Shown one piece after another: positions 12,001 through 33,000 of a stretch of 35,758 bases of DNA; the first letter of the stretch is position 1; each line of letters starts with the position of its first letter. The translations under genes were made by a program, and so were the position numbers. The stretch is taken from assembly GCA_002340085.1 (NCBI GenBank), contig DDKR01000153.1:1-35758 (forward strand), given 5' to 3'. The notes below the pieces were generated by a model. The model was not told where the DNA came from and ran no database searches. It saw nothing but the letters and a program-made list of their open reading frames with translations. Origin of the DNA: Candidatus Omnitrophica bacterium UBA2593 (GTDB taxonomy: Bacteria > Omnitrophota > Gorgyraeia > Gygaellales > UBA2593).

Positions 12001-15000
12001 TTATACTTCTTATACCTTTACTACCCAACGGCTCTTTACTACTATTGGAGAAATAGTCGGGGACTTAGAAAAGGAAGAAACTTATGCGAAAAATAACTTT
12101 TTAAAAGCACTAAATGCGATTTTGAATCCTTCTTCAAATTTTTCTTCACAATTAAATACTCAACTATCAGAGAAAAGTAGTCTTTTAACTGATGCTTCCA
12201 TTGTGGTTAAAGAAATAGATGAAGCTATCAGAGTAAATAAGATTGAGCTATCCTCTTCTCAAACCCAAGCTGTGCAAGATGTCTTAGCTTTAGCAGTTAA
12301 TCCCGTAGTAGACCTTGGTGATGACCATGAGCCTGTTTCATACGGATATAAGAGGTTACACCGGATTGCCCAAGGAAAGGCTTGGATTGAGTATCATCTC
12401 GGCTCTACGCAGAGTAAAGATTTCATCAGTAGGATGCCTTACTATGCTCAGGAATCGAGTGCTTGGATAGGAAGATACCTGGGAATAAATGAGAGTTGGA
12501 ATCCAGTTTTATTGAATCCGGTCTCCTGGATTCCAATCTCGAGAATAAGGAGATTTGTCCTTACCTATAAAGATCGGGGAGTAGAAAGTCTCTACAAACA
12601 AGCTTTAATAAATCCCGTAAAGTATGAGAGAAGCTTAAGAGATATTTCTCGGTTTATCTCTCCTGGACGACCTGATTACGCTTCTATTTTCTCCTCTCTT
12701 GTTCTTCCATCCGCATTTTTATCTTCCAAAGTACTTACTAGCTTAGGGTTAGGAGCAACCCTTTTAAGTTCTCCATTTATACTTGCACCTACAGCAGCTC
12801 TCTTAGGTTTAATTCCCGCTCATCTTTTAGCTAAATACTTAGCCGAACACTGGGGAAGAGATGATAATTTTGCCCGCATAAGTAAACAGTTAGATAATAT
12901 CACTGATAATAGGGAGTTAAGAGAATATCTCTTATCTTTGCGTTTAGCAGCCCAAAGAGCTCGGGAAGAAAATCTCAGCCAACTTTCTCAGTGGAAGAGG
13001 GTTCCTCAGTCTTTGCGTCCTCTTTCTCCTTTTGGTTCTTTCTATACTAAATTAGATAAGAGAGAGTCAGCAAAGAAGCCTTTTGAAGCCACAGTAGCTG
13101 AATACTATACTCCTGCTTCTTATGCTCCTCGATTATCTACTACTGAAAAGATAAAGAGAGTTCATGAGTTTTTTAAGGGAGTAGATAGCAAGAGAGCAGA
13201 GAAATTTAATTTAAAAGAACTTATTGAATATCTCCAACTTTCTCCCGGAGAAAAAATCCATAAATTCAATAAGTATTTTAAGCTTGATTTTACAGAGGAG
13301 TGGAAAGAGATCCAGGAAAAATCAGAGCAGAAAAGATCTTCCTTAGCTACAGTTAATCTAATAAAACAGGGACTCTTTAATGAAAAAGAGAGAAGGTTTT
13401 CTCTTCTACAGGTCCTCGCTGCCACAACTGAACCTATCAAGCAGGCAGATTTCAATTTTATTACAAAGAGTTTTCAGCTCCAAGGTAGACTTTCAGAATC
13501 TAGGCCTAAGAACGATAAGGAGATCCAAACCAACCAAGAGATCATTAACTCTGCTTTAGAAGAGATTGTTTCTTTAGCCGACAAACTTAGTTTCAAACAA
13601 AGAAGAGAAGAGTTGTTAAGAGAAGCAAACACAGGTGAAGTAATTAGGAGGATAAATAAGATTCTGGAGGGTAATGAAGATTTTGGGAAAAAACTCCAAG
13701 CCATATATGAACTTTCTGCAGATGAAATTTTCAATTCATCAGAGCGCCAAGAAGCTTTAGAATATTTGTTACCAAAGCAAGCCAACCAATTACCAAATCA
13801 AGCCAACCAAAAGGTAGATTTATCTTCTTTAGAGCAAGCCCTGAACTTTCTTAAACAAAGTCTAAGATATGCTCAAGAAGAAGCAGAGAAGAGTATAAGT
13901 GATGATATGGTAAAAGCAGTATGTGAAAAGATGCCGGGGAAAAAACTCAAAGATCTTAAAAAAGAGTTAGAAGGTGATTTAAGCTACTCTATCTATAGTA
14001 TTCTTACCTCACAAAGTTCATCTGAAAAACCATTCCTTAAGAAGATTTCTCAGATCGAAGCTTTAGCTGAAATTACTGCTTCTGATTGGATCTATCACTT
14101 AAGAGCAAAACAGGAGATCCATAACTCGCTTAGAGAGGCTTCGAAAGACAAAGAAAATACCACATTAAAAAATATCCCTCAAGAAGATTTCCTCAAGTCC
14201 CTCACTGAAAAATACTACATCTCTCCTCAGCAGATCTCTTCCTTACGCCAGCTCTTCAGGGATTTTAAACATCTGCTTGAGATGCAATTCAAAGCCAAAG
14301 ATGAGAAGGATAATATTAATCTCTCTTTCTATGAAAAAGGTTATTATGAGGTTAGCCTACCACTCATAGAAGAAGTATCTAAAGAAGTTACTGGTTTGCT
14401 TAAGGATTGGGTAGAAGGTAAGAATTTAGATAAAATTTGCTCTTCTTCTGAAAAATTAAAGGAATTTCCTTCTCTCATTGAGAAGACCGCAGTCTTAAAG
14501 GAAAATTTAGCTACCTATGAGAAAGAATTAGGTATTCCTCATCAAAGAGCAATAGATTTCTCTAAGCAACCTCAAGAAGCTTTTGAGCTTTTAGGAATAA
14601 GAGGAGTCGAGCTAAAAGTAGATGAAAAAGTAGAAACAAGAAAGCTTCTTTTAGATAAACTTAATACCGCAATCCCCTTACGTGCCCAAGGACTCCTTCC
14701 TTTTGGAATAAATCTTTTACAAGTTTCTACGCCCCAAGAAGACCCTATCCTTCAAGAGATAGAAAGAGATCTCAGCAGTCCTATTCAACAAGACATTCAA
14801 AATAAAGTCTATGAGACTATCCTTCAATTCCCCCAACTAAAAAAGTATCTAAAAGATAAAGTCGATGATCCTCTGAGTGTAGATAAAGCGATGGAGAAGG
14901 TCAAAGAATTGTTCTCTGAAGGCAAGATCTCTTTAAAACTTGCTTCTTCTCATATCGATACAGTAAAACTCATTGATCGGACTACAGAAGGTAAGGGTTA

Positions 15001-18000
15001 TGAAGTATGGGTTCCTTTGGAAAGATTTCAGATTACTTTAGGTGAAGGAGGCAGATTCGGATTTAAACTGAGAGATGTAGGAAGATTAGAGGCTCGACAC
15101 GAGATATTAGGACACTTATTCGCTAAATTTTTAGGCATACCCTTAGGAGAGTCCAGAGATGCAATCTGGGGGTATAATGCTACTGAACAGGTAGCCTTAA
15201 CCCTTACCTCTGTCGATGCTATAGAGTGGGCGAAAAAAGGAAGAAGATTAACTCCTGACCAGATATCCTATATCCATGCAGTTACAAAGATCAGTCCAGT
15301 AACTCGACCTTCAAGATTGAGGTTCTGGTTAGAGAAACGTAAAAATTGGGATAATGAAAAAGATGCTTATATGGATTCGATGCGGTTATTTTATTTTGCC
15401 CAGGCAAAAGGTGATGATTCTCTTGCTGAAATTCTTTCCCATAAACTGTTAAAAGGATTTGGGAAAAAAGTTTCTCGTTTACCTTCACTTTCTTTTATAA
15501 GAGAGTATATTAACAGAAGAACTTCTTTTCTACCTCGACAGGGTTATAAAGCCTTCTCCCAAGGAGCAAAGAATACACTTGGCAAAAATGAAGGTACTAC
15601 ACCTATCGATGGAGAATGGATGAAATTAGAACCTCCTTCTTTGGCAAGATACTACTCTCTAAATTACCTTTCTTCATTCCATCCCCAAAAATCTGAACCT
15701 CCTTCTCTATTAGGTCCAGAAGGAGAAGATTCTCTCTATAAGGATTCTCTCTACTTAAATCAAAAATTAGATGAGATAGTTAAAGAAAAAGGAATTATTG
15801 AAGAAGTACTCAATGATGAAAATTTTAAGAAAAGAGTAAGAGAGAAAGCAGGTTATTATAGCCCCACAACATCAGCCTATTATGTAGAAACAAAAGGCAC
15901 CATCTTATACCGCGAGGGAAGAAATGCTTGGATAAGATTACACGAGATAAAACATGCCTTAGATGACATAGATTCTCCATACGGAAAACCCTCCCAAAAA
16001 CTAATAAATTTTTACCGTGAACTAAAATCCTTTTCTTTTGCTTTTGGACAGGGTGGAGATTTAACCGAAATAGAGGAGTCTTTAAGAAAATACGATAACC
16101 CCTTAGAGGACCTATTAGATTCACTCCTCTGCGAAGGAAAAACAGAGATATTTAGAAAAGACTTGAGTATAATTTTGAGACGTGCTGAAAAAAACCCTTG
16201 GTTTGATCAGATTAAGATCAATGGGTTTAAACAGGAGATGGGTTGGTCGGAAGGGAAATCGTCTTGGTCTATAGAAGAACTAAATAAGCCAGAGATTTTA
16301 AACCTTTTTGACAAGAGCGAGTTTGGTATAGCCACAGAACTCACTGCCTACATGTTCAATGGAGTAATCGAAGGAGATAAGGAGATTATTAAGTTTACTG
16401 ACTTCTTCTTAACCTGGCCTGAAGGACAAAAATTATGGAGAGATCACCTTGAGAAAATTGGCTTAGGTAAGATTGCTCAACTCCACATCGATCAAGTCCA
16501 ACAGAGAAAGAAGAAAGAAACTTCCTCTTCACCTTTTGTTCAATTAGGTATCCTTCAACAAAATCCTACTATAGGTATAGATAAGAATGGTAATGTCTTT
16601 GGTGGTGGTTATCCAGTTTGGGGACCATTTTATAATGAGGTATTAGAGCGATTAGGACAAATAACTCCTAAAATAGATAGGTATAGATCTTCTTCTTCAT
16701 TGTGCGAGGGGAAAAGAGAGAAGATTTTACTTACGGCTTTGGCAGGGATGTCCCCAGAAAATTTTAGAATTAATCCTCAGGATGATAATGATTCGGTGGG
16801 AAGAATTAGCTCTCAAATACCCACATCTGCCTCTCCTGTAGCCTTTAATAGGATTCTTGATTTGTTTGGAAGATATATCAATTCTTTTAAAAATTCTTTA
16901 ACTCTACCTGGCTCTTTAGCTAAGAAGGTGTATGATAGGTATAGGTTGGGTAAAAATAATAATGTAGAGAATATACTGAAGCAAGTTTTTAACAATCAAT
17001 TCTGGAAAGGAAAAGTAGAAATTCCAGAAAATTTACAGCGCCCCATTCTTCCTAATTTTGAATTTACCAAGATAATTCCAAATTTCCAGGAGTTGAAATT
17101 ATTAAATCTTACAGAACAAATAGAACAGATGAACCAAGGATTACTGTCCCTTTTTTCCTCTGTAGAACAAATGAATCAAGGAGTACCGCCTCTTCTCTCT
17201 TTGCGAATAAACCCTGATTCATTAGCGCAAAAAATAGCAGAGCTCAACATAGCAGAACTTAACAGAATAGCAGAGCTCAACATAGCAGAGCTTAACAAAA
17301 TAGCATCGCAAATATCGCAACAGAAGCCTATCTTCTACAGGAATTATATATCTTTTGGAAAATCTCCTGAAGAGAATGATGAAGTTGATTTCTATTCATT
17401 ACTATCTCAAGATAGATATTTTGGTGAAGGGTCCATTATTTCTAAATCCAGCATTCCTAAATTCGAGACTCCCGAAAGACTCAGGTTAAATACTACTAAA
17501 AGACAACTCCTATTTCCTGATTTTTCCTCTGTTACTCTATCAGGTCCTTCTTCTGCACATCATCTCAGTATCTCTGAACCAAAAAGAGGAACTAATTGGG
17601 CAAAGAGGAGCATAATAATAGGTTTACTTTTACTCTCTTTACTCCCTCTGAAAGATACTCCTAATAATAAATCAAACCTTTCGCCTTCTCTACTAATGCC
17701 TCCTTCCGTTGCTGATACCATTAAGCCCGAAGATATTATTTATACTGTTAAACCCGGAGATAGTCTCTGGAAACTTGCTAAGGAGCATTTTGGAGATGGT
17801 AGTGATTGGCGGAAAATTTTAGAGCTCAATCCCCAATTAAACGGTCGCTTAGGTAACCAATTAACACTAACTGGTGAGGAAAGAATAATAATTCAACCTG
17901 AAGAGCCAATTAAAATGCCCTCTCCAATTGGAAAAAGCTCAGTAGGTGTGGCATTTGTTGCCTCCTCTACATACATAGAAGTATCATTTACAGAGCAGTT

Positions 18001-21000
18001 AATGAGATGGATTGGAAAGGTATTATCACTAGTACTTGGCTTTGCTCCATTTCCATTAGGAATTATTCTTCCATCAGTGAAAATGAAAGGGGAGAAGGAA
18101 AGAGGAGTAGAGTTTGTTTCTTCCTTCCTCCCAATCTTTAATGATTCTCTGCTGGTTATTATGCTCGAGGAGGGAGCTAAGAGGGCAGTACTTCCGCTTA
18201 TCACTGAAGCCACCCCTATTGATGGTCTATCTTATCTCTTAATCAATGAAAAGAAAGAGTTTAGAAGAACGCTTACTACCCCCAGATCAACAACAGAAAG
18301 ATTTGAAGGTGTTGCTTTGCCACCTTACTCTATTATTTCAATCCCTGCACTCTTTAATATGGTGGCATTATCTCTTCTGAACTTTATTCCTAAACATAAT
18401 ATCTTAGGCGTCAACAACCTTTCTGGTTTTCTCTTACCAGTATTAACTGCACAGAAGAGAGATCAACGTTCTCTATCAATGGAGCAGCAGCGACTTGGAG
18501 TCTTGGAAATGGCTTTAGGAGCCCTGTTGTTAGCTATGATGAAAGCCTCTTCTTCATTGACTAATAGGCTGCTGGTGGTGATGTTCAATAGAGATAGTTT
18601 GCCGACTCCTCAAGGAGATTCTCAACAGAACCAACGGTCACAACGGCCAATTGGAATGCCACCTACAGGATCATCATCAATAAATGTAGGTGCAGTGGTG
18701 GGGAGTAGGAGTCAATCGACACCAGCACCATCAGAAATTAGTACAAGTCCATTAGATCCCAGTAAATTGGCTCAGATTGAAGATATAATAAACACTCTGC
18801 GATCTTTCATTGGAATGATATTAATGCGTGCTGGACCCATAAGTTCTGCGACAGCGTCATCTTGCGCAGACGCTCAGTCGCAAATAATAGCGCAAAATTT
18901 AGCTGTAATAGCTGTAATAATATTAGCTATATTAGGGAAGTGGAATAGATGTGAAGGAACCGGGAATACCCAAGGTCTGCCTGTAGGTGCAGATAGTCGA
19001 GGTATAACTGGAGATTCCGGAAAGAACTCTAAAAACAGATTCCGAGGTTCCAGTAGTGCGATTTTAGGTGAGCGTATAGCGGATAGCGTAGAGGATAGAG
19101 CAAGTATAAATACGTCTTCATCTCTAAATAATAGACCTCAGAAAGATCTCGCAGGAAACCATAGTTCCCTTAGTCCGCCTATACAGAGAAATGGTTCTCA
19201 AAGCTTAGGTAAATGGTCTAAGTTAATTATTCCTGAACTTGTCAGTGGGTTTAAGCGTCTTATTAATATAATTCTATCCACTCTATCCACAGAACCCCAG
19301 CGCCATTTTTCCAATGTTCTATCTGCGGTGGCAGTTTCAGGATTAAAAGTTAATGAGAACCTATTTCAGGCTACCATTCCTCCAGGAATTTTTGGGGGAG
19401 TCTCTTTAGCTATCCTTGGTTTGTTATTCATAGCAACGCTTGTAGGAATTGCTTATATAATTTTCAGCGCCAAGCCCCCAGCACAAAGTATTGGGGGAAA
19501 TACTTCTCCGCCATCTACTCTGAAAACTCAAGGTGTATATGGATATTCAAGGAATCCTCTATATACACTCTATCTTCTCTTGGCGGCGATTCTTACTATA
19601 TTTGGAATAGATGGTTTTGCTGAAGGGAAAGCTTGGGAAGGAGCCATCCTTATAGGTGTTGCAGTCTTCCTTACTCTTCCTTCTCTATTTTACCTTCCAA
19701 AAGAAGAGGGTGAATTACTATCTAAGTTTGAAGAGGCGTATAAAGAGTATAAAGAAAAAGTTCCACGTTTTGTCTCAACAAAGGTAGCGATTTGCACCTG
19801 CTCCATTTTATTATTCTTACTCTTAGGAACACTTGGTTGGTTAGATAGATGGGTTGATTCCATTGTTGATTTTATTACTCTGACCGTGACATTATCCTTG
19901 TTCACCTTATTCCCGTTATTCCTGCCAAGAATAACCACATCCTCATCTACAAAATTAATGGAGAAGGACTCCAATCAGATTAATGACTCTCCTCGGGCAA
20001 ATTCACCACTTACTATCTCCAACCTTGCCAGAAATTCAGTTCATCATCTAATTTTTCAGTTTAAAAAGATTCTTTTTGTGATTGTGATATCGTTTAAATT
20101 GCTAGTATCCGGCTATAATTTTGCTGTTCCTAATGCATTCTCGTCTCCTCCATCTGTTCCACCCGCTCAAGTACAAGTAGTAGAACAATTTTCTATTTGT
20201 GAGGCTTTAGGAGAGATAAGACAACTTGAAGGAATAGAGGTAGTTTATCTTGATGAAAAGAGGGTTTGGATTTTGATTAAAGAGAAGGGAAATTTAGAAG
20301 AATTAAAGCCAAAGATAGAAACTTTACTTAATAAGACAGGGTTATTCTGGAGAGGAGAAGAAGAAATTAATCCTGTCCCATTCAGATACATCTTTACAGT
20401 ATATCCCAATGTAGAAAAGGAAGAATTAGAGGTAAAGATAAAACCAAGGAATAACACGGTGGTTATTATTCAAGGAGAGTGGGCAGTGACTAGTGCTACT
20501 GATGAAAATTACAAGTTAGCTACTTGGGGTCTTGGTTCGTGTATTGGTGTATTGATATACAATCCTACTACTAAGATTGCGGCCATCACCCATGTTGATT
20601 TCGAAAATGCAGTCTTTTCTACTGTAAAAGAGATGCTTCTTGCAATAAGGACTGAAGGAAAAGATGAGATTCAAATATGGTTCACCGATAATATAGGTGA
20701 AATGGAAAAAACAGTAATCATCAGTCAATATAATTTGGACTATCGAGGTGATTTGCCGCGATCATTCGTGTTTGATACCAGAAACAGCGGACTTAGAAAA
20801 CTTTCAGAAGAGGAGATTAAAAGACTTGCCAACGATGAAACTTTAGATAAAAGACTAGGTCAAATAACCGATAAAAGAATAAAGAATTCAATTACATCTT
20901 GTATAGAAAGGTATGATGGTACTTCGTCTCCAATAACAAAAGGAAGGAGAACTTCTAAATCCAGAGGTCCCCAAAACGAAAGAAATCTTTTGTCCAGCAG

Positions 21001-24000
21001 AGGAGGATCTTCTAGTGCGATTGAGGTTGGGAAGAAAGGGATAGAATCGCTGTTGAATGGTAGAAGCACGCTATTTTCTTATTCTAATGAGCAAAAGAAA
21101 TCTAACCAAAGAAGTTGTTCTCCTCTTCGCGGTCCACCCAAAATTGGTGGAATTGGTAGCCTCGTCTCAACAGTTCTCGCCACCATCCTATTACCCGCAT
21201 TAATACCCCTTGCAATCATTGCTGGATTATCTTCCATTATTTCTGGTCTAATAGTTCAAAAAGGAATAATCAGTCTACCATTTCTCTTTGGGCTCACCGT
21301 GGAAGTCTCAAGAGAGATGGTTTTTGTTGCAAATGGGGTGTCCGTAGGAGTCCTAACCTCCAGGATGGCCCCTTCTACGGACCCCATTGCAACTATTATA
21401 GGAGGTGCATTATGTGTCCTATCAAGTTTGATAAATTACAGTTTGACCATATTGTCGAGTTTACCAATGATAATACTATCTTTGCTGCAGCCCGCCAAAA
21501 CAGTAGTCATAACAGCAATGGCCACCTTAGGCTATTTCTTATTAACCAGTCCACTGGCAATGTTTATTGTCGCAATGGTTGTGCTGATTCTTGGGAACAG
21601 CTTAGAGGCTCTACCCGTGATACCGTTATTGCTCAACTCATCGCTGCTCGCAACAACCATATCCCAGTCTATAGAATTAACGGGGGAGGGCTTCAATCGG
21701 ATTGAAGCCCCTTCTCCAGTTCAACCTGCTCTTGAAACCACCTCCAGTTCGATACAAAAGGGATCCCAGTTGAGTTTGTTTAAGAAAATATCTTCTGTCA
21801 AGAAAGGGAAATCTTATCCTTTTATAATTGCAGTAATACTTCCCATTCTTACATTTTTCCCCATCGTCAATACTTACCAACAATATAAGGTTAGCTATCT
21901 AAGAGATAAGGAGGCAATAGAGAAACTATTAGAGGAGAAATCAGATTTGCTTCATTATTATCATTCACATTTATCTTTTTCTAACATCCGTAGGATTTTG
22001 AAAATATGGATCAATTCTCTTTATCAAAATTCTGAACAAAAGAGAGAATTTCTAAAACATCTTTATAGATGTAAGTCTGTTGAGGAGATCATAGCTAATG
22101 ATAAATTGCCTGCCTTGATAAGGCTTTATGTAGGAGGGTTTATTAAAGGCGATGTATATGGCAACCGCTATCAATTATATCCAATAGCAAAACAACTCTT
22201 AAAGGAGACAGAAGATGAGAATATGTGGAAGTTACTTGCTTATCATAATAAAGTTACATCTCTTGGGAAAGTTACATCTCTTGGGTATAAGAGTATATTG
22301 TGTGATGATATAGTAAGAACTTATAGTCTTGCAGTGTTATTAATAATCGACCAAGAAATTCTAACAATTACAGAAGAAAAATTCCTAACAGCTATGGAAT
22401 ACATAAGATCTGCTCAGGTGTGTGGAGAAGCTCAGTCTTATATAATCAGAGCAAATAGAGAGTTAGTATTTGGAGGCAAAGAAATAGAAAAAGATAGGAA
22501 TATTAAATTCTTCTCAGGAACGATTGCTCATGAGATAGCACATATAATTGCTTATTGGCCCATCGAGGTCAGAGAAGTCGATGAATTCTTCGCAGATTTA
22601 GTTATGTTTGTCTTCTTCGAAAAAATGGGTTGGAAAGAAGATATTTGGATGTCTCAGCAAATGGTAAATTATAAGGAGGCTGTAGAATACGCTAAAGATA
22701 ATGGATGGGTAGTAAATAAGAAAGAACCACATACTATTGCGCGCACACAATTAAAGGTTATAGAAGATGCTATTAGAGAATATGAGGGCGAGGTATCTTG
22801 GGAAGAGATTCTTAAAGCTGCTTTAGATCCACGTTGGACGGATAAAAATCGCAACCGGTCGATAAATAATGGCTTAAATCTTTTCAGAGGTAATTCTATT
22901 GGCGATCTGTTAAACTCGAACTTAAAAAAGAAAATAACAAAGCGAATAGCTCAGTCTTATCCAGAAAAAGACTCTCCTATTTGGATAATAGCTAACCATA
23001 TGCTGGATGAAATCCTGAAAGATAATCACAAAAAGGATAGTATTGGAGAAAGGACAGGATATGGTAAGGTTAGGATTTATCGACCTCGAAGTAGATATAA
23101 AATAACATATAAGCAGGAGAAGGACGCAACAGTAATAATAAAGACAGATAGAGTAACTGGTAGTAAGGTAATTTCCCGCTATCCTACTAAGCCTATTCAA
23201 TACAGGAAGTCAAAGAATAAACCCTTTAGCTCTTCTCCTGTCGATACTTGGGCTATCGCTATAGGTTATGAAGGATTAGCTGGATTGTTTAATGGAATAA
23301 TTGATCTATTAAACCAACTATCTCTCTTATGGCTTGCCGTGGAGGCCTTAGGAGAGATGGTTTTTGTTGCAAATGGGGTGTCCGTAGGAGTCCTAACCTC
23401 CAGGATGGCCCCTCCTACGGACCCCATTGCAATTGGAGGAGGTGCATTATGTGTTCTATCAAGTTTGATAAATTACAGTTTGACCATATTGTCGAGTTTA
23501 CTAATGATAATACCATCTTTGCTGCTGCTCGGCAAAATGGTGGGTATAACGGAAACGGGCATCTCAGACTATTTCTTATTAATCAATCCACTGGCAATGT
23601 TTATTGTCGCAATGGTTGTGCTGATTCTTGGGAGCAACTCACTGGTTCTACCCGTGATACCGTTATTGCTCATCTCATCGCTGCGAAGAACAACCACATC
23701 CCTGTCTACAGGATTAATGGAAAGAGCCAGCAGTAGTCTACAGACCCAATCTACTTCTTCGCCACTGCACATTTTAGTCTTTGGCCCAGAACATTTAGCC
23801 CCGCAAATAAAACGCAAGATTAAAGAGAGATTTAAACAGATTGAGATTACCACCGTCGGAAATTATAATAGCTTTTTAGTAGACTTCGGTAAAAATAGAT
23901 TTCAGTTACTTATTATCGACGGTGTTACATTAAGTGTTACATTAAGTGAAAAAGGAGAAGTATGGGAGGAACTCGAAAGATTAATTAAAAAAGTAGTTGA

Positions 24001-27000
24001 GAAAAAGAGCAGACCAAGGATTATTATTCTATGTAGTAAAGATCTTGAACAGAAGATAGAGAAACTTAAGGAAGAGCATTCTTTAAAGATTGTATTTGTG
24101 GAGGACTATCCAGCGGGGAGCAATGTAAAAGGGTTTCTTGAAAGAATAAGAGAAGAACTGCACTTAAAAAAAGTAAGTTCACCACTGGTTAAGAATGTTT
24201 CTATTCCGATAGATGTGCGGTTAACTAAGGAGAATAGAAGGGATAGAATAGAAGCAATTATGGGCTCGCTGGGAGGATCAATTTTAAGTTTAAGTTTTCT
24301 TTACCTTCCGTGGCCGGTGGTGAGAGGATTTTTCTTCTCAGCGGGCCTAAGAAAATATCTTGCTCTATTCACTAGGAGTCCATCTCTTACATTCGCTTGT
24401 TTAATAACTGCTTCCATCTTCCTCACTTCAATCATATTCTTAGTTCTCAATTCTCAACTATTAACTGGACTTTTAACCCCGCCACCTATCTTAAGAGCTA
24501 CCGTGGCAGTTGTCTTAGGATTGATGGCTTTTGTTGTAATTTGGGAGAGGTTGGCAGTCCTAAACCTCCAGGAGACGGCCCCTGTCAACCTCCCTATTAC
24601 AACTAATACAGGAGGTAAAGAAGGAATTCAAACTGAGACTCCCAATCTTATTACCTCCAATCATGCTACTTTATCAATTAAGTCTATTATCTCCAGTCCA
24701 GTGGCTTCGCCGCTCATTACCTCCAGCCCTACCATGACAGCCTATACTTTAAGAAAGGCAAATAATTTAAGGGAGGAAGATTCACCACTCACCACCCCCA
24801 ACCTTACCATTTCCAGCTCTGTTACCTCATTTGAGGAATTTCTTGCTGGTATAAAGAAGTTAGAGGAGTGTCTGAAGGTTTTAGAGGAGTATTTAAAAGG
24901 AGCCCTTATTCCTACTATAGAAAAGACTACGAGAGAGATAGTAGATATTTTCAATAATCCCTCCTTTAAAAAGACATTAAGCAAATTTTTAAACGAGGAA
25001 ATCACCCATGAAATAAAGGCTGACTTGACTATAGTATGTGGGTATTGCCAGTTACAGGCATCAGAAGAAGAGAAAGAGCGTTCTATAGAAAAGCTCAATT
25101 CAATAAAAGCGCGCTTGATTGAAGTTAAAATAAAAGAAATTCTTTCACATTTTTCTTCTAGAATGGGATGGAGTGTTTTGATTTTGGCAGAGAATACCCA
25201 GAGATTAGAAGAACTTAAGGCGACATTCTCAAAATTAGGTGAATCAGAGTTAGTAAGTAAGACAGAAGAAATAATAAGAATTTGTAGACAAGAAGTCACC
25301 CTTCAACAGAAAAGCGAGTCTTACCTCGAGGCTACAGAGATAATTAACTCCATCCAAGATAAGCTTTCACCCGAAGGAAGTCAAATTGAACCCTCCACAG
25401 CTCAGACAACTTCACCACTCAAGATTGCTTTTAGTCCAATGGGTTTGTTGTCAGTTAGAGTCAAAAGAGATATAATAGGAGCAATTGTGGGTCTGCTGGG
25501 AGGAATTTTAGGTTTTTTCTACCTCACGTGGCTGGTGGGGAGAAAATCTATCTTTCCAGCGGGCCTAGAAAAATATCTTGCTTTACTTATTCACAGTCCA
25601 CCTCTTACATTCAGCTGTTTAGTAGCTACTTTCATCCTTCTTAACTCAATAAACTCAATAGATCTATCTCTAATCCCATCCTCAATCTCCAATCCTCAAT
25701 TATTAATTGGATTCTTAACCCGGCCACCTATCTTAAGAGCTACCGTGACAGTTGTCTTAGGATTGATGGCTTTTGTTGTAATTTGGGAGAGGTTGGTAGC
25801 CTTAACCTCCAGGATGGCCCCTGCCAACCTCCCTATTACAACTGATGGAGGAGACAAAATTTCTTATTATTCCTTGAGGAATACTGTAGAGAGAGAGCTT
25901 AAAGAGAAAAGGCTTGATTGGTATTTTATCTTCAGGAGGATTAAAGACCAAGGTTTTTCAGCTGCTTCGCCTATCAGGATAAAGAATGTGGTAATAATAG
26001 GAGTTCTAATAGTAGCATCACTTTTTGGGTTGTTAAAGTGCAGGGATTTTTTAAGAAAGCAGGATGAAATGCTTGAGGCAATGGAGATTCTTCGGGAAGG
26101 AAGAGAATCCACTTTTGGTCCGAGTTTTGGCGTGCTTTCACCAGAAGCCTTAAAAGAATTGATAAACTCCAAAACCTCTTATTCTCATCCAAGGTCGGTT
26201 ATGGAGTTGGTAGATAAATTGGCTTCTCTCTTTGGTGTATCTCCTACTGATGAACAAAGGTATGATTGTTTACTGAAGATTCAGACGATGGAAGGAAAAA
26301 TCAACGGATACAAAGGTTATATTTCAGAATTAGAAAGACGCTTTGGTTTACCTTCTGGGATAATGGGTGCAATTATAAGAGCAGAGATGTTTGGCTTAGC
26401 ACCTTTTGAAGAATTCACTGATTCTATAGGAGGGGTACTTACAGGAAAGACTTCTATAGGTCCTACTCAGGTGAGGATAGATACTGTGCGGATGTTATAT
26501 CCAGAGTACAGAAAAGCTTCTAACTTCAGGATTACTCAACTTCTTCAGGATGATAAATTTGCCCTTGAAGCAGGAGCAAAATATATACAGTGGTTAGTTA
26601 AAAAGATGGGGTTAGATCTTAAGAATTCTGGAGATCGGTTAAGGCTTTGGGTTGCTTATACAGCAGGACATCAATCACCGGCTTTTAAAGAAATCAGAAA
26701 ACCTCCATTTAGAAGAAATTTTAAAAAGGAAGATTGGGTTGCCAATGAAGCATGGGCTTATGCCTATGTAGCGGAAGCATTTTGCCGATACTTATCTACA
26801 CGGGCTTCTTCTGAGGCCTCTTCATCTTCTGTGGCTGATGAGAAGAAATCTGTTTTCTTAAAAGGATGTCGTGCAGTTAGAATCACCAGTTTAGCATCAG
26901 CAATTTCATTTTTAGGAACAATTCCTTTATTTACTCCTTTGGTGTCTTTTGCTACGGTATTGGCGGTGGGGATAGCTGTTTATTATGGGATGAAGAAGAT

Positions 27001-30000
27001 TGTTGGGTTTGTTAAGGTTGGTTTGGTCTTTAATCCTCAGCAAAACTCAAGGAAAGATGAGCTTGACGAGACTGGAGTTGGAGCTGAGATTAAAGAATTA
27101 ATTGATAAGTTTGGGAGAGTGTTGGAGGAAGTTCTAATAGGGAGAGGAGATAAATATTCTGAAGATATTTTTGCTGAGCAGTCTGAGGTAGCTTTATTGG
27201 TTCAGTCTACAAAGCAAGTAGTAGAGATTGCTTGTTCTAAAGGTAAGACATATATCTTAGCTTTAGCAGCTCTAATCAAATACCGTACAACGGGTATTCC
27301 TTCCTTGGCCTTTGTTCCTGCTTTTGGTTTAGGTTTAGATGCCTTTGAGAAACACAGGATACATCAGATATTAGGTAAGGTTGATCCTAATTTTAAGGTG
27401 GGTTTGGTAGATTTTGCTGAGGGAAAGGGTAAAATCTATGATGGGGATGGCGAATGGAGAGAAGTTAGTATAGCTGAAGTTTATAGCAAGTGTGGTTTGG
27501 TCTATAGTACAGTAGAAGATACAGTGCATAATTATTTAAGCGAGCATCTATCCCGAGAAGATAGAGACTTAGCTTTAATTACTCGCAAATGGTGGGTATT
27601 CTTTGATGAAGTGCATTTGACTTTGTTGGGTGAGCGCTTAGGAAACCCATTTGTTATCTCTGAGATGACCAAGCAATATTCAGAAGTTGTAGAAGAAGCC
27701 AATGATATAGCAAGAGAACTTTATGAGTTAGTGGAAAAAAATGGGGCTCTTCTGAAGAGCGAATATCATAGGATAGATGAGAAGGATAGGAAGGTAAAAC
27801 TTACTAGAATAGGAAGTAAATTTGTAAAAGAAAGACTTAAAAAGACAAAGTTATTGAGAAATCGGGGTAATTGGAAAGACTTTGTAGATACTGCCTTATG
27901 TGCTTGGTTCTGTTATAAAGAAGGTAGAGATTATCTTCATAATCCTGGTTTACCAGAGGGAGAAGAGATTTCCATCATTAGAGAGAGTGGAGAGAGAGGA
28001 AAAGAATCTTACAGCCATGGTTTACATCAGGCAATTCGTGCTAAACACGGCTATAACCCATTCAGAGATGGAAAGACTATTGCCTCAATTATGTTAATGG
28101 GTTTCCTAAGTGATCTGGAAGTGGTAGAAGGTTACTCAGGAGTGAGCGGGACCATAGATAGAGAAATGGCAAATGCTTTAGGATTAGGGGTTCAGATTAT
28201 TGAAGAAAAAGAGAAGCCAAATATCGTTCAAGAAGGATTTATTCGGATGTCAGTAAAACCAGATATTCAAGGATTGGTAGAGATTGTAGTAGAAAAAGTT
28301 AAGAGAGGACAGCCGGTTTTAATAAGGGTAGAAGATATTTCTCGGGTTGAAAAGGTAAAGGAAGCTTTAAAGGTAGAAGGCCTGGAGATAGAAGTGAAGA
28401 GTTTAGATGCCAGGACTGAAGCTGGTGAGAGACAGAGAATCCTTGAGAGTGCAGGTAAACCAGGAGCAGTTACTGTTGTTACTGCTGCGGGCAATACAGG
28501 TATAGATATCAGTCTTATGGAAGAAGCGATTGAGAAAGGCGGTTTGACAGTTATAGCGTTTGGCCTCTTGGAAGACAGATTGCAAGAGATACAACTGATG
28601 CGACGGGCAGCAAGGAGGGGAGAACCGGGAGAGTTTATTGTTTTCGGTTCACTTGAAGATAGAGTAGTAAGGCTTTATGCTAAGGATTATATCCCGGTGG
28701 CTAAAGGAATTTTAGAGAGAGCAGCAAAAGGTGATAGAAAAGCTCAGATTAAAGTTAGAAAAGTGGTTATGCAATTGCGTAAGACAATTAAAGATGCGAG
28801 ACTTCAACAGATCAGAAGGAGAGTTAAGATAGAGCAAATGATTACCCAAGCTTGGCAGAGGCGTTGTAATTTGAGAGAGAACATTAAGAATGGTTTGCTG
28901 GTAGAGGCTGTGGCGAAACTGATCGGTGTAGAGTTGAATGAGGAGAAGAAAGAGCAATATCAACAAGCAGCTTTAGAATTACTAGATAGGTATTGGGTTG
29001 AGTTTATTGCACGGTGCGATGAAGCAAGATATCAGCTGCTCAATAGATTTGGTTATGATTACACAGAGTGTCAAGGTATTCTGCAATTTCCAGTTGATTC
29101 GCAGTATATGAAAGAGGTAGGTAGATACACCGACGAGTTTATGTATTATACAGAAGCTAATACTTTCCTCTATATGTTGAAAGAAGCAGGAAAGAGTTTA
29201 GATGATTTGAATCTTAAGAGATCCTTCATTTACTGGTTTAAGAGAGTAAGGAATTTTGTTGTCCAAAAAAGTCCAGTTGTTATAGCTGCTGTAATTTTAT
29301 CCTTTGTAGTCTATGGGTTATACCGTCTGAGTTTTGGTTTATTTGGGCTTATCTCAACTCCTACACAACCCTCTGGTTTTGCCCGGGTTTTGATTGATTT
29401 TATTGTTAGTCTGTCTGCTCTTAATCAGGTATCATTGGTTGCAATCATAGTGATTGCGATGGTCTTTCTCTTATTCATTAATCGCAACCTTATCTTTCCG
29501 GCTTTAGCTAAAGACAGAAGCGAAAACTCGTTATCCGATGCTCTGTTTGGAATAAAGACAGAAAACCAGAATTTGACTTCATTCTCCCTCGCAGTTTACA
29601 AGAAGGTCTATCCAGTTATTGCACAGATTAGTACAGGAGTATCTCTAGTTATATTCGGCTTGTCTATTTTCACTGGTAGTAATTTGCTACTGAGTACAGT
29701 AGCATTTATCTCTATCTTCGCTTTAGGACTAGCTTTAATTACTTTGAGTGATTCAGGGTTAAAGGCATATATAAGACAAAATAGGATTTCTCTGCCATCT
29801 ACCTTGTTTGGGAGTTACGCTTACTATTTTGCTTTTAGTATCTTGGTTTATCTGGGAGTAATCTTTGGATTAGGTTATTTTGGCATTACTCCTGTGGTTA
29901 TGGATATGAGTATCTATTTGAGTATAGTTATCTTAGGGGGTGGGCTCCTTGCTTATTTCATCTATATGATGAATCAGTATTTGGATAGACGGTTTAATGA

Positions 30001-33000
30001 TAAACCCAAGGAAGTAGAACGAGATGTCGCTTTTGCTGGCATATTAGGAAGTGGTGCTTTGGCGGGCTTACTTATACATCTCCAAGAGATGGAATTACTT
30101 ACCCCTAATACTATTTCTACTATTTACGCTTCAATTTGGCCGGCGGTTCAGTTAACTGTAATATTAATGTTTCCACTCGCCTTGGTTGTTTTAGGTAAAC
30201 TTATTTTTGGTATTACGCGTGCTCAGATGTTGGGTGAAAAGATAGTAGAAAATGACGGTGTGGTTTTGAAGAGAGGTTTTTCGGAGAGTGTAAGGGAAGT
30301 CTTAAGATTAAAGCATATCAAGACTTGTATTGGTGTGGTTTTACGGGCGTTGATAATAAACATTATTCCTACCAGTATTATTTTTGGTGGTCTGCTTTTC
30401 TTATGGAAGATCTATACTGATACAAATATCGCCTTGGGGCTATTAAATACAATTACTCCTTACTCTTTAATAATAGCAGGAGTTGTTTTGATTATAATTT
30501 TAGCAACTTTAGCATTTAGTCCTAAAAAGGTAAGTGTAGCAACTGGTACAGTGTTAGGTGTGGGTGCAGTAGGGGGTATGACTATGGTTCAACAACAGAC
30601 AGGGCAAATGATCGAATTTAAAGCCTATTGTGCTGAACTCTTCGGAATTTCTAGAGAAGAATTTAAAGATCCGCGGGTAAGGATAGCCGTAGAAGAAATG
30701 AGAAAAGAGATAGAAAGATTAAAATCAGCCACTAATGATTCTTCTAAGTCCGGAAGAACTACTACAGCTGGAGGTACGCAAGGTAATCAGACTACAAATG
30801 ATCCAGATAAGACTGAATCATCTAAAGTTAACTTACAAGAGCCTCCAAGAGGGGGAAAGATTGAACCACTGAAAGAAGGTCCAGGTAATACCTTCTCAAA
30901 AGAAAATCCTCACAATAAATCTCCACCAAAATCTCAAAGTAAATCCTTCCTACAAAAACTCACTTCTTCTCTCAAAGAGAGTTTGAATTCTTTGAGTAAT
31001 CTTTTCATACCTTCTCTTAATGCTGAAGAAATAGATAACTTCCACAGCACCAGAGTTTATACTGAGAATACCACCCCAGGAGTGGAAAGAGAAGATTGTC
31101 TTTCTTTACAAGAGCCAGTTAAATGGCATCTTCCAATTAAAGTTCCTTATACTCTAACCAATGAAGGTAAATTTGGTGCTTCCAGAGATAGAGATGAACT
31201 TAGTGAACCAGGTTACGGTAAGCCAGATGAGATACCTCATACTGGCCTTGACTTCTGTGTTCCAAAAGGAACGCCTATATATGCAGCTTTAGAAGGCGTG
31301 GTTATCTTTAGCGGTGAACTTAATGGCTATGGAAAGACAATAATCATCAAGCATTCAGAGGGATGTTATACCTTATATGCTCATAATCAGGAAAATTTAG
31401 CTAGAGAAGGAGAGAAAGTCTCTCAGGAGACAGTGATTGCTAAAGTCGGCCGGAGTGGTAATGCGGGACAAGTTGGAGAGATGCTTCATTTTGAAGTAAT
31501 AGAGTCAGAGGTTGAGCTAAGTAATTATCAGGGATTAAGAGAGACATTGGCTACGGGAAAAGCAAAATATCGCAATCCTGAGGAGGTATTGGGATTGACT
31601 ATTTCTGATCGGGTAGTGGAAAATGGTGATTTAACCTCAACATTAGAAGAAAAAGCGGAAAGCTTGAGGGAACTTTTGAATTCAGGAATAGAATATTACA
31701 ATCAAGGAGATTTTAAGACTGCTATAACGATTTTCAGTGAAGGCATTAATTTAAACCCTTCCTTCTCTGAGGGGTATTTTTGGCGAGGAGCTACTTATTA
31801 TCATTTAAAGCAGTATTATGAAATGATAGAGGATTTTAAAAGATCTGAAGAGGTTAAAGAGACCAAACGGGAAATAGTATCTTCTTACACAAAAGGAGAA
31901 ATTCTTATATATAATAGTGGTAGAGTTCTTGAGGGAGGAGATCTCCAAATCAAATCAGAAGAGTTATTTTCGAACTATTTATTTTCGAGTGTTTTAATTG
32001 AAGATGCTAAAAAATGGATAGAGAGACTAGAATCAGCTCGTCTTCAAAGTAATATTTCTAAACCAGAGGAGAAAGAAGGGCCGGTTATTTTCGTATTGGA
32101 TAAAGGTGTGAATGCAGATCTTGTTGGGGGTTCAATTAAAGGTATAGGGAATAAAGGAGATTTAATAACCTGGTTAAGTCATGGCACTTTTGTAGCAAAG
32201 GTTATTCGTGATCTGTCTTCAGCTGAGATTATATCTATTGACATAACGAGACAATCAAAGACAGGCCCCCTTTTCGTTACAGATACAAAGAAGATTTCCC
32301 AATCTCTGATTCAGATACTCGCCTATATGAAAGAGAATCCCAGGGTAAAGGTAATAGTAAATATTTCTTTCAGTGGATCTTTTGGAGACTTCAATGATCT
32401 TTTAGATGTAGTCTTAATGCAAGCTATTATCCAACAAGGTGGAGTTATTGTTGCAGGCGCAGGGAATGAGGGCACTTCTTTATCTCGAATATCCAGGTAT
32501 CCTGTTTGTTATCCGGGTGTTATTGGGGTAGGCGCGATTAAAAAATCAGGAAACAAGGCCGATTATAGCAATTGGTCTAATGGCCTTCTCGTTGCTCCTG
32601 GGTGGATTAATGGGAGTGAGGAATGGAAAAATTTAACCAAAGAAGAGTACGGATGCGATATTGAAGAAATATATGGTACTTCCTTTAGTGCTCCTTATGT
32701 TGCTGGTCTAATTGCTAAGATATGCGAAGAATTTGGGTTCACACCTCAGCAGGCATATAAGATTATTGAAGAGACTGCAGAGCCTTTAAAAGTTTTTGAT
32801 AATTCCCCGAATTATTTCTTGAAAAAAGTTGATCCTTTCCGAGCATTAAAAAGAGCAAGAGAAGAGAAATATTCCAAACCCGCATTGGAAAGGGTCGGAT
32901 CATTATTTAATTTTCTCTTTCCACCACCTCTTTATGCTACAGGAGTAGATAATTCAACTACTACAGAACAACCTAATCTTAATTTCAAACCCGTATCGGA

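What the first reader, a model, noticed from the sequence alone, without database searches (positions are those of the whole stretch)
21351..21414. Hairpin loop carries an anti-Shine-Dalgarno mimic (ACCUCC) complementary to a GGAGG box 4-8 nt downstream of every copy: potential pseudoknot or SD-sequestering switch
In all four copies the loop contains (A)CCUCC, and a GGAGG(U/A) box follows the 3' arm after 1-7 nt (21401-06, 23438-43, 24611-16, 25847-52). Loop-to-3'-tail pairing of 5-6 bp would form an H-type pseudoknot. In copies 1 and 2 that GGAGGU is also the Shine-Dalgarno of the nested ORF. The element could therefore gate initiation of the nested gene, for example opening only when a ribosome translating the giant frame melts the hairpin, which would couple the two products. 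CCUCC is also the core of the 16S rRNA anti-SD, so the loop mimics the ribosome's own SD-binding site.
Basis: inference. Interest (0 to 1): 0.7.

Follow-up and report, generated by a model that had tools for sequence, protein, structure and literature searches.

The report
Nested gene and RNA hairpins in giant gene
The GGAGG box is the ribosome-binding site of a real ~92-aa gene hidden in the -1 frame of an Omnitrophota giant gene, and the hairpin before it belongs to a new, conserved RNA module whose CCUCC loop is kept even where no GGAGG follows, so the proposed loop-to-box pseudoknot is not supported.

Summary
All four copies have a ~20-25 bp hairpin with (A)CCUCC at the apex and GGAGG 2-7 nt after the 3' arm.

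The whole window is one stop-free frame (>=11,919 codons) of an Omnitrophota giant gene. The "nested ORF" is a real gene: ~90 related loci, always in the -1 frame, under purifying selection, with GGAGG fixed 6 nt before its AUG. The giant frame stays open across it in 71 of 71 cases.

The hairpin (H2) is half of a ~140-nt two-hairpin sense-strand RNA module. It is absent from Rfam and strongly supported by covariation (93.8% paired against 70% in shuffles). It occurs in tandem arrays inside giant genes.

The pseudoknot/SD-switch reading fails three tests:
- 26 of 28 modules without a nested gene keep the CCUCC apex but have no GGAGG. The two exceptions are copies 3 and 4 of this window.
- Loop and box show no covariation.
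- About 25 bp separate the apex from a 7-nt spacer.

GGAGG is therefore a Shine-Dalgarno sequence, and CCUCC is an intrinsic module motif whose partner is unknown. A ribosome-dependent capture of the SD by the apex remains possible. The locus appears undescribed and is interesting.

The parts
2..35758 (+). Giant ORF (codon starts = 2 mod 3), open at both window ends. It is an Omnitrophota 'Archaeovorin'-like giant protein with LysM, SecA PPXD/P-loop, Peptidase_M23, Peptidase_S8 and TPR domains.
   Evidence: There are 0 stops in 11,919 codons against 457-1107 stops in the other frames. Related loci are Omnitrophota MAGs.
21272..21414 (+). RNA module copy 1. H1 is 21277-21321 (apex CCGUGGAAG). 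H2 is 21326-21393, with its apex ACCUCC at 21356-61 and its 3' bulge UGGCCCC. A 7-nt spacer follows, then the SD GGAGGU at 21401-06 and the AUG at 21412-14.
   Evidence: The CM hit scores 95.3 bits, E 6.6e-21.
21412..21705 (+). Nested gene copy 1 (97 aa, -1 frame relative to the giant ORF), family 'B' (..DHIVEF..FAAAR..RNG.ADSWE..IPVYRING).
   Evidence: There are 31 full-length homologues and ~90 loci. The AF2 model has pLDDT 83.5.
23312..23451 (+). RNA module copy 2. H1 is ~23316-23362 (apex CCGUGGAGG). H2 is ~23366-23433 (apex CCUCC at 23397-401). The SD GGAGGAGGU is at 23435-43 and the AUG at 23449-51.
   Evidence: The CM hit scores 91.3 bits.
23449..23736 (+). Nested gene copy 2 (95 aa, -1 frame), 88% identical to copy 1.
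   Evidence: Between the copies, 29 of 38 differences fall on nested-frame codon position 3.
24476..24624 (+). RNA module copy 3, with no nested gene. H2 is 24533-24603 (apex CCUCC at 24565-69). GGAGGU at 24611-16 is retained, probably as a relic SD, but no start codon or ORF follows: the -1 frame has stops at 24604 and 24616.
   Evidence: The CM hit scores 98.1 bits. The sequence is, ORFs, and tblastn finds no remnant.
25718..25863 (+). RNA module copy 4, with no nested gene. H2 is 25775-25842 (apex CCUCC at 25806-10). GGAGGA is at 25847-52.
   Evidence: The CM hit scores 82.1 bits.
19879..19986 (+). Decayed remnant of the C-terminal third of a third nested-gene copy in the -1 frame (DRDIILVHLIPVIPAKNNHILIYKINGEGLQSD**).
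   Evidence: tblastn gives E 1e-7. The translation shows upstream stops. There is no module upstream.

Best explanation
Interval 21351-21414 runs from the apex of hairpin H2 to the start codon of a genuine overlapping gene.

Shown:
- The window lies inside one giant Omnitrophota gene.
- A ~92-aa gene is nested in its -1 frame. It is conserved across the phylum and under purifying selection, and the giant frame is kept open across it.
- GGAGG(UG) sits 6 nt before the nested AUG and occurs where a nested ORF follows. It is that gene's Shine-Dalgarno sequence. In most loci there are stop codons in the nested frame just upstream, so the gene starts by independent internal initiation on the giant mRNA.
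- H2 and the preceding H1 form a ~140-nt sense-strand RNA module. Its stems covary and three motifs stay invariant: the H1 hexaloop GUGGCA, the H2 apex CCUCC and the one-sided H2 bulge A(Y)UGACCC. Both loop motifs are kept even where the giant reading frame passes through them in a different phase.
- The module occurs in tandem arrays, with or without a nested gene downstream. CCUCC is therefore a property of the module and not the partner of a cis SD.

Inferred mechanism:
- The cassette 'structured leader + SD + small gene' behaves like an ordinary gene with its 5' leader that has been engulfed by the giant ORF.
- The very stable H2 ends about 7 nt before the SD, at the 5' edge of a 30S footprint. 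There it insulates the RBS from upstream pairing and slows incoming giant-frame ribosomes, which gives 30S subunits a window to load.
- The invariant loops are recognition sites for an unidentified trans factor, protein or RNA. That would also explain the modules without a nested gene.
For: Giant ORF.

Nested gene:
- 29 of 38 c1/c2 differences fall at nested codon position 3.
- There are 31 full-length homologues of 90-99 aa, and 180 at depth.
- 46 genome loci and 44 metagenome loci were found, almost all Omnitrophota.
- The gene is always in the -1 frame of an ORF open across the fetched locus, and the nested frame usually closes 12-180 nt upstream of the AUG.
- The giant frame is stop-free in 71 of 71 nested genes against P~0.29 each under synonymous shuffling, and the third frame is open in 0 of 71.
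- Divergence at codon positions 1/2/3 is 0.34/0.25/0.58.
- Amino-acid identity is 0.57 in the nested frame, 0.32 in the giant frame and 0.30 in the third frame.

SD:
- GGAGG lies at -11 in most of the 71 upstream regions.
- It is present after about 60 gene-adjacent modules and absent after 26 of 28 modules without a nested gene.

RNA module:
- 18 of 20 RNAalifold pairs show double compensatory changes.
- 93.8% of cells are paired against 70.1% in shuffles and 43-52% in slid controls. The covariation score is 0.66 against 0.22 and 0.09-0.14.
- G-U pairs number 170 against 37 A-C, and all 109 hits are on the sense strand.
- The apex stem covaries and presents CCUCC.
- The motifs occur in more than one codon phase.
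- No Rfam family matches.

With H2 intact, the SD does not pair with the module (P 0.10; 0.00 with the apex).
Against: - There is no expression, ribosome-profiling or structure-probing data. Internal initiation, pausing and insulation are inferences.
- A few nested genes have no module within 140 nt (for example L031, L087, L092), so the module is not strictly required for expression.
- A pausing or insulating role does not need invariant loop sequences, and the postulated trans factor is unidentified.
- The exact complementarity of the apex to the SD could still be functional in gene-adjacent copies.
- The covariation alignment A4 was fitted to the model, which inflates pair counts somewhat. 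The independent MAFFT alignment A3 gives the same picture.
Confidence: 0.7

Rival explanations
1. In the resting mRNA the CCUCC apex pairs with the downstream GGAGG as an H-type pseudoknot and sequesters the nested gene's SD. A ribosome translating the giant frame melts the structure and switches the nested gene on.
For: A 5-6 nt perfect complement is present in most gene-adjacent modules. Duplex energy is -7.0 to -10.9 kcal/mol. CCUCC lies in an apical loop.
Against: - 26 of 28 modules without a nested gene keep CCUCC with no GGAGG nearby.
- There is no covariation and there are uncompensated variants.
- About 25 bp lie between the apex and the base, against a median 7-nt spacer (range 1-16). 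24 of 76 loops are only 5 nt.
- The duplex energy is about the size of a standard pseudoknot initiation penalty of ~9 kcal/mol (my recollection of the Dirks-Pierce and pKiss parameters, not computed here).
- Some gene-adjacent H2 hairpins lack CCUCC yet keep the same SD (L038, L080, L082, L083).
Confidence: 0.07
2. Reverse-polarity, ribosome-dependent capture. With H2 folded the SD is free. When a giant-frame ribosome opens the 5' arm, the released apex and C-rich 3' arm clamp the SD. The nested gene is then initiated only in gaps between giant-frame ribosomes, which avoids collisions.
For: With the 5' arm removed, the predicted P(GGAGG paired to the CCUCC apex) is 0.76 on average and 0.91 at the median. 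With H2 intact it is 0.00.
Against: - An apex mutant still sequesters the SD (0.67) through other C-rich sequence, so the result is partly generic.
- The time window before the ribosome itself covers the SD is only about 20 codons.
- Modules without a nested gene have no SD to clamp.
- There is no covariation.
Confidence: 0.1
3. The C-rich apical loops act as anti-SD regulators at a distance or in trans, like the C-rich loops of Gram-positive sRNAs. Arrays of H2 hairpins, possibly released by processing of the giant mRNA, would pair with the SDs of the nested genes or of other mRNAs.
For: The CCUCC apex is conserved in all module types, including those without a nested gene. Modules form arrays, mostly within ~1 kb of nested genes. 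The hairpins are very stable, about -38 kcal/mol.
Against: There is no evidence of processing or of stable fragments. Targets are unknown. It does not explain the equally conserved GUGGCA loop and A(Y)UGACCC bulge.
Confidence: 0.08
4. The box is only a conserved Gly-Gly in the giant protein, and the hairpin is a by-product of a repeated hydrophobic protein segment with no RNA-level function.
For: GGA-GGU is in phase with the giant frame in 64 of 67 cases. The modules encode a semi-conserved hydrophobic peptide..SVAG..VV..GG.G.LLQGLTP..TT...
Against: - Modules without a nested gene lack the box.
- The arms are not conserved as protein but covary as base pairs.
- The loop motifs persist in different codon phases.
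- G-U pairs far outnumber A-C.
Confidence: 0.02
5. A DNA-level mobile or recombinogenic palindromic cassette (MITE, RPE or attC-like) that spreads in-frame within giant genes, with the small ORF as its cargo.
For: The duplicated unit c1/c2 is exactly module plus gene. The window also holds a decayed third copy, tandem arrays occur, and public contigs break at the module.
Against: The cassette always lies on the sense strand and in a fixed frame relation. It sits in the same kind of giant gene across a whole phylum, with 42-74% protein divergence, which fits vertical inheritance. No transposase-like features were found. The G-U asymmetry fits RNA.
Confidence: 0.03

Closest known systems
comS nested out of frame inside the srfA-B surfactin synthetase gene of Bacillus subtilis (from my own knowledge, not tested here)
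   Same: A small protein-coding gene with its own SD and start codon lies embedded in another reading frame of a very large gene. It is presumably translated from the same mRNA.
   Different: The gene here is conserved across a whole phylum, occurs as two paralogous families and in multiple copies per giant gene, and is preceded by a conserved structured RNA module. Its function is unknown.
SD-sequestering pseudoknot riboswitches (preQ1-II, SAM-II/V type) and other anti-SD expression platforms
   Same: An anti-SD sequence lies in a hairpin loop and a complementary SD lies in the 3' tail.
   Different: In those RNAs the two partners always co-occur, the connecting loops are short and sterically matched, and there is a ligand pocket. 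Here the loop is conserved without the SD, about 25 bp separate them, and there is no covariation.
C-rich apical-loop regulatory RNAs that pair with SD sequences (S. aureus RNAIII hairpins, RsaE/RoxS) (from my own knowledge)
   Same: A C/U-rich apical loop on a stable hairpin is exactly complementary to GGAGG-type SDs.
   Different: Those are independent trans-acting sRNAs. Here the hairpins are embedded in a coding sequence, read through by ribosomes, and arranged in tandem arrays. No released RNA is known.
Rickettsia palindromic elements (RPE): in-frame hairpin repeats inside ORFs (from my own knowledge)
   Same: A repeated hairpin-forming unit is translated as part of a host protein without breaking the frame.
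   Different: RPEs are dispersed selfish insertions in many unrelated genes. The present modules sit at a conserved place in one gene type, have invariant loops with covarying stems, and are linked to a nested gene.
Translational control of overlapping genes by RNA structure in RNA phages (MS2 lysis and replicase genes) (from my own knowledge)
   Same: Internal initiation of an out-of-frame or downstream gene depends on local RNA structure and on upstream ribosome traffic.
   Different: This is a cellular genome with a giant host ORF, an independent strong SD, and a tandem structured module. The dependence on ribosome traffic is only hypothesised here.

Membership tests
Shine-Dalgarno site of an internally initiated gene | A purine-rich GGAGG complementary to the 16S 3' end, 5-9 nt upstream of a start codon | tested here: met
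   GGAGG(UG) lies 6 nt before the AUG in most of the 71 upstream regions.
Shine-Dalgarno site of an internally initiated gene | The start codon opens an ORF under purifying selection | tested here: met
   
Shine-Dalgarno site of an internally initiated gene | The motif co-occurs with the ORF and is absent where the ORF is absent | tested here: met
   It is present after about 60 gene-adjacent modules and absent after 26 of 28 modules without a nested gene. The exceptions are window copies 3 and 4.
Shine-Dalgarno site of an internally initiated gene | Demonstrated 30S binding or initiation | not testable with these tools
   This needs toeprinting, start-site profiling or proteomics.
Overlapping (dual-coding) gene pair | Both frames are open over the overlap in all homologues | tested here: met
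   All 71 of 71 are open, a joint probability of ~1e-39 under synonymous shuffling. The third frame is open in 0 of 71.
Overlapping (dual-coding) gene pair | The embedded frame shows a codon-position signature of selection | tested here: met
   Divergence at positions 1/2/3 is 0.34/0.25/0.58, and 29 of 38 c1/c2 differences fall at position 3.
H-type pseudoknot / SD-sequestering switch | Loop and 3' tail are complementary | tested here: met
   ACCUCC is complementary to GGAGGU, and 86% of cells are paired in A3.
H-type pseudoknot / SD-sequestering switch | The two partners co-occur or covary across homologues | tested here: not met
   There is no covariation: 0.044 against 0.045, with 288 of 500 shuffles at least as high. 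26 of 28 modules without a nested gene have the loop without the box.
H-type pseudoknot / SD-sequestering switch | Connecting segments are long enough to span the enclosed helix | tested here: not met
   The median spacer is 7 nt against ~25 enclosing bp, and 24 of 76 loops are 5-nt pentaloops. This is a rough geometric argument, not 3D modelling.
-1 programmed ribosomal frameshift site (dnaX type) | A slippery heptamer followed by a downstream stimulatory structure, with the -1 frame open from the shift site | tested here: not met
   The hairpin is upstream of the -1 ORF, not downstream. There is no conserved slippery motif in GGAGGUGUACCAUG. Stops in the -1 frame lie 12-18 nt before the AUG in many loci.
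Any described RNA family (Rfam 15) | A match to a curated covariance model | tested here: not met
   The only hit is a sub-threshold miRNA match: 25.6 bits against a gathering score of 68, E 0.28.
FG-GAP/VCBS beta-propeller repeat (nested protein) | A Pfam gathering-threshold match | tested here: not met
   Pfam gives no hit at E<=1. A profile of the family hits FG-GAP proteins repeatedly, which is only a lead.
Sigma-70 promoter inside H2 (TTGACC ... TACAAC) | -35 and -10 hexamers with a 16-18 nt spacer and a conserved final T in the -10 | tested here: not met
   The spacing varies from 17 to 20 nt and the -10-like hexamer ends in C. The promoter scan calls nothing upstream of either nested AUG.

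The most novel reading that the evidence does not exclude
The two-hairpin module is a translation-traffic device peculiar to giant mRNAs. Its CCUCC apex is a true anti-SD decoy that is held away from the nested gene's SD while H2 is folded. It clamps the SD when a giant-frame ribosome opens H2. Production of the small FG-GAP-like protein is thereby gated to the ribosome flow on the giant ORF. Additional modules in the array act as spare decoys or as binding sites for the same machinery.
Probability: 0.12. Interest if true: 0.85.

Novelty: new variant of a known kind. Interest (0 to 1): 0.74.

Why it matters
Long out-of-frame overlapping genes that are convincingly conserved are rare in cellular genomes. 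This one is conserved across a phylum, present in two paralogous families, and sits inside the largest known bacterial genes.

It comes with a new, strongly covarying RNA structure that lies wholly inside a coding sequence. That combination offers a natural system for studying how internal initiation coexists with ribosome traffic on a >100-kb mRNA.

It also affects how Omnitrophota giant proteins are interpreted. Here, some of the hydrophobic 'transmembrane-like' stretches are the giant-frame read-through of an RNA module and of another gene. Assemblies also tend to break at these modules.

Neither of the two giant-gene papers I checked mentions any of this.

Tried and rejected
- **Rfam** scan of 20.8-26.3 kb at E<=1: nothing real.
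- **Nested protein** against Pfam, NCBIfam, PDB sequences and Foldseek-PDB: no assignable family or fold. FG-GAP similarity is only a lead.
- **-1 frameshifting into the nested frame**: rejected, because of upstream stops, no slippery site and the hairpin on the wrong side.
- **Minus-strand explanation of the codon-position signal**: no open minus-strand frame spans the repeat.
- **Internal promoter formed by TTGACC...TACAAC**: rejected, because of variable spacing and a poor -10.
- **H1 loop to H2 loop kissing** (GG(C)AGG with CCUCC): considered. The GG is predicted to close the H1 stem, whose flanking pairs covary, and both loops are invariant, so nothing supports it. This rests on inspection.
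- **H2 bulge UGACCC pairing with GGGUCA in the 5' arm**: present only in a subfamily (inspection).
- **Remnants of the nested gene after copies 3 and 4**: none found.
- **Minus-strand ORFs 24742-25299 and 25867-26172**: no Pfam match, treated as chance ORFs.
- **Pseudoknot-aware folding programs** (pKiss, IPknot) were not available. I substituted constrained folding and geometric reasoning.
Full report
**1. Context**

The whole 35,758-nt window is one reading frame (codon starts = 2 mod 3) without a single stop in 11,919 codons. The other five frames carry 457-1107 stops. In this frame Pfam finds LysM, SecA preprotein-binding and P-loop domains, Peptidase_M23, Peptidase_S8 and TPR. This is the make-up reported for the SecA-bearing 'Archaeovorin' giant proteins of Omnitrophota. 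The related loci found later are almost all Omnitrophota MAGs. The 'giant frame' of the finding is therefore real, and the four 'copies' lie inside a giant gene.

**2. The observation**

GGAGG lies at 21401, 23435/23438, 24611 and 25847, and CCTCC at 21357, 23397, 24565 and 25806. Each copy folds into the same long hairpin, at -31.6 to -39.0 kcal/mol with z from -2.3 to -3.1. The spacer from the extended 3' arm to GGAGG is 7, 2-5, 7 and 4 nt.

Copies 1/2 and 3/4 are two pairs of recent duplicates. Between the pairs the arms differ by compensatory changes, for example GTCCGTAG/CTACGGAC against GTTGGCAG/CTGTCAAC. In copy 3 the apex CCTCCAGGA is kept although the local reading frame is shifted, so VLTSRM becomes VLNLQET.

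**3. The nested ORF is a real gene**

- In the 289-nt repeat downstream of the hairpin, 29 of the 38 c1/c2 differences fall on codon position 2 of the giant frame. That is position 3 of the nested frame.
- The 95-97-aa product has 31 full-length homologues of 90-99 aa at 58-74% identity and about 180 relatives in a deep profile search.
- Ninety loci were fetched. In essentially all of them the small gene lies in the -1 frame of an ORF that is open over the whole fetched locus.
- Upstream of its AUG the nested frame is usually closed after 12-180 nt. The small protein is therefore made by independent initiation, not by frameshifting.
- Across 71 distinct genes the giant frame is never interrupted. 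Under synonymous-codon randomisation P is about 0.29 each, so about 1e-39 jointly. The third frame is never open.
- Divergence by nested codon position is 0.34/0.25/0.58. The nested product is 57% conserved. The giant-frame product over the same DNA is 32% conserved, no better than the non-coding third frame at 30%, but it is hydrophobic.
- The AF2 model is confident (pLDDT 83.5, pTM 0.74). It has no PDB neighbour and no Pfam or NCBIfam match. A weak FG-GAP-like resemblance is only a lead.
- A shorter paralogous family (hhalign probability 97.6%) is nested in the same way in other loci.

**4. The hairpin is part of a conserved RNA module**

The 140 nt upstream of the nested AUG share two hairpins in most loci.
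- H1 has a variable stem and an invariant apex CC-GUGGCA-GG.
- H2 has an outer stem UUGUUGU/ACAACAA and a variable middle stem of about 12 bp.
- H2 also has a one-sided 3' bulge A(Y)UGACCC and a short apical stem that presents CCUCC.
- After H2 come a short spacer, GGAGGUG and the AUG.

RNAalifold on a plain MAFFT alignment finds double compensatory changes in 18 of 20 pairs. A covariance model finds exactly the four copies in the window and 109 copies in all loci, all on the sense strand. On that alignment 93.8% of cells are paired, against 70.1% in shuffles and 43-52% with slid partners. The covariation score is 0.66 against 0.22 and 0.09-0.14.

G-U pairs (170) far outnumber A-C (37), so the sense strand folds, most simply as RNA. 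The loop motifs occur in more than one codon phase of the giant frame. CCUCC is found in phases 3, 2 and 1 in 33, 13 and 1 cases. In one subfamily the H1 apex is read as YRGRY instead of SVAG. They are therefore conserved as nucleotides. Rfam has no such family.

**5. Test of the pseudoknot / SD-switch idea**

Modules occur in tandem arrays, and many have no nested gene after them. About 60 modules are followed by GGAGG, an AUG and a nested ORF in the -1 frame.

- **Modules without a nested gene.** 28 such modules have an H2 as stable and as tall as the others (-37 against -39 kcal/mol, about 26 bp) with CCUCC at the apex. Only 2 of them have a GGAGG within 25 nt, and 9 have none within 400 nt. 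The two exceptions are copies 3 and 4 of this window. They have no start codon or ORF, and no remnant of the gene, so they look like relic SDs.
- **Covariation.** The proposed helix, named as a pseudoknot on the alignment, is 86.2% paired against 86.1% in shuffles. Its covariation score is 0.044 against 0.045. Loop variants (CCUCG, CCUCA) and box variants (AGAGG, GGAGC) are not compensated.
- **Geometry.** About 25 bp enclose the apex, while the spacer from the base of H2 to GGAGG has a median of 7 nt. In 24 of 76 cases the loop is just the five nucleotides CCUCC.
- **Energetics.** In the nested-structure ensemble GGAGG pairs with the first codons of the nested gene (0.51) and hardly with the module (0.10; 0.00 with the apex). 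Forcing CCUCC:GGAGG without a pseudoknot costs +15.5 kcal/mol on average.

GGAGG is therefore the nested gene's SD, and CCUCC is an intrinsic motif of the module. The alternative that Gly-Gly codons explain the box also fails as a general explanation, because modules without a nested gene lack the box.

**6. What is not excluded**

If the 5' arm of H2 is removed, as an invading ribosome would do, the remaining RNA is predicted to pair GGAGG with the CCUCC apex (mean P 0.76, median 0.91). An apex mutant still sequesters the SD at 0.67. A ribosome-dependent capture is thus thermodynamically conceivable.

**7. Best explanation**

Shown: an SD-led overlapping gene, preceded by a conserved structured RNA module, inside a giant ORF.

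Inferred: the cassette behaves like a gene with its structured 5' leader that has been engulfed by the giant ORF. The giant frame across it is merely kept open. H2 abuts the 5' edge of the ribosome-binding site. It probably insulates the site and slows incoming giant-frame ribosomes. The invariant loops are probably recognised by an unknown trans factor.

The cassette turns over within the gene. c1 and c2 are 80-100% identical exactly over module plus gene, and a decayed third copy lies at 19879-19986.

**8. Novelty**

Two papers on Omnitrophota giant genes mention no nested genes, hairpins or internal SDs. Further literature searches found no description. The closest analogue I know is comS inside srfA-B (from memory). 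The RNA module is a new family.

Noticed in passing
window 19879-19986 (+, -1 frame): This is a C-terminal remnant of a third nested-gene copy (DRDIILVHLIPVIPAKNNHILIYKINGEGLQSD**). It is preceded by stops and has no RNA module upstream, which suggests that cassettes decay as well as duplicate.
   Followed up: partly
window 21283-21672 vs 23323-23709: c1 and c2 are 80-100% identical exactly over 'module + nested gene' (H2 is 100% identical), while the flanks are at background identity. This indicates a cassette-level duplication or gene conversion inside the giant gene.
   Followed up: partly
L036:4737, L018:4737, L068:2737, L094:369, L096:5227: A second, shorter nested-gene family (82-87 aa, MCRNYNDLEFTHFVV...VPVYRTN) is a distant paralogue of the first (hhalign 97.6%). 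It is also in the -1 frame and also preceded by a module plus SD. In L036 and L018 the two families sit in tandem.
   Followed up: partly
L001-L009 (first 50-130 nt): Public contigs that carry the small gene often end inside or just upstream of the module, several at the same base in the H2 loop. This suggests that assemblies break at the repeated hairpin module.
   Followed up: no
window 21398-21425 and homologous sites in related loci: In nested genes that begin MCP or MAP, GGAGGUG pairs locally with codons 2-4 to form a small hairpin around the AUG (-3 to -9 kcal/mol). Genes that begin MVK lack it.
   Followed up: partly
window 21272-21705, 23312-23736, 24476-24624, 25718-25863: The hydrophobic, TM-like stretches of the giant protein here are the giant-frame read-through of the RNA modules (GRAVY +0.51) and of the nested genes (+0.35), against -0.26 for the whole window. 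Some predicted TM regions of Omnitrophota giants may reflect this overprinting.
   Followed up: partly
nested protein (window 21412-21705): A profile of the family repeatedly hits FG-GAP/VCBS beta-propeller repeat proteins through its core FAAARENGNGHLRLFLIN...RNG. The confident AF2 model has no PDB neighbour.
   Followed up: partly
window 24742-25299 (-) and 25867-26172 (-): These are long antisense ORFs (185 and 101 aa) downstream of copies 3 and 4. They have no Pfam match and were not examined for conservation.
   Followed up: partly
window, whole: GGAGG is enriched (95 against 73.6 expected, with only 1 of 100 shuffles reaching 95) and lies mostly on the sense strand of the giant gene.
   Followed up: no
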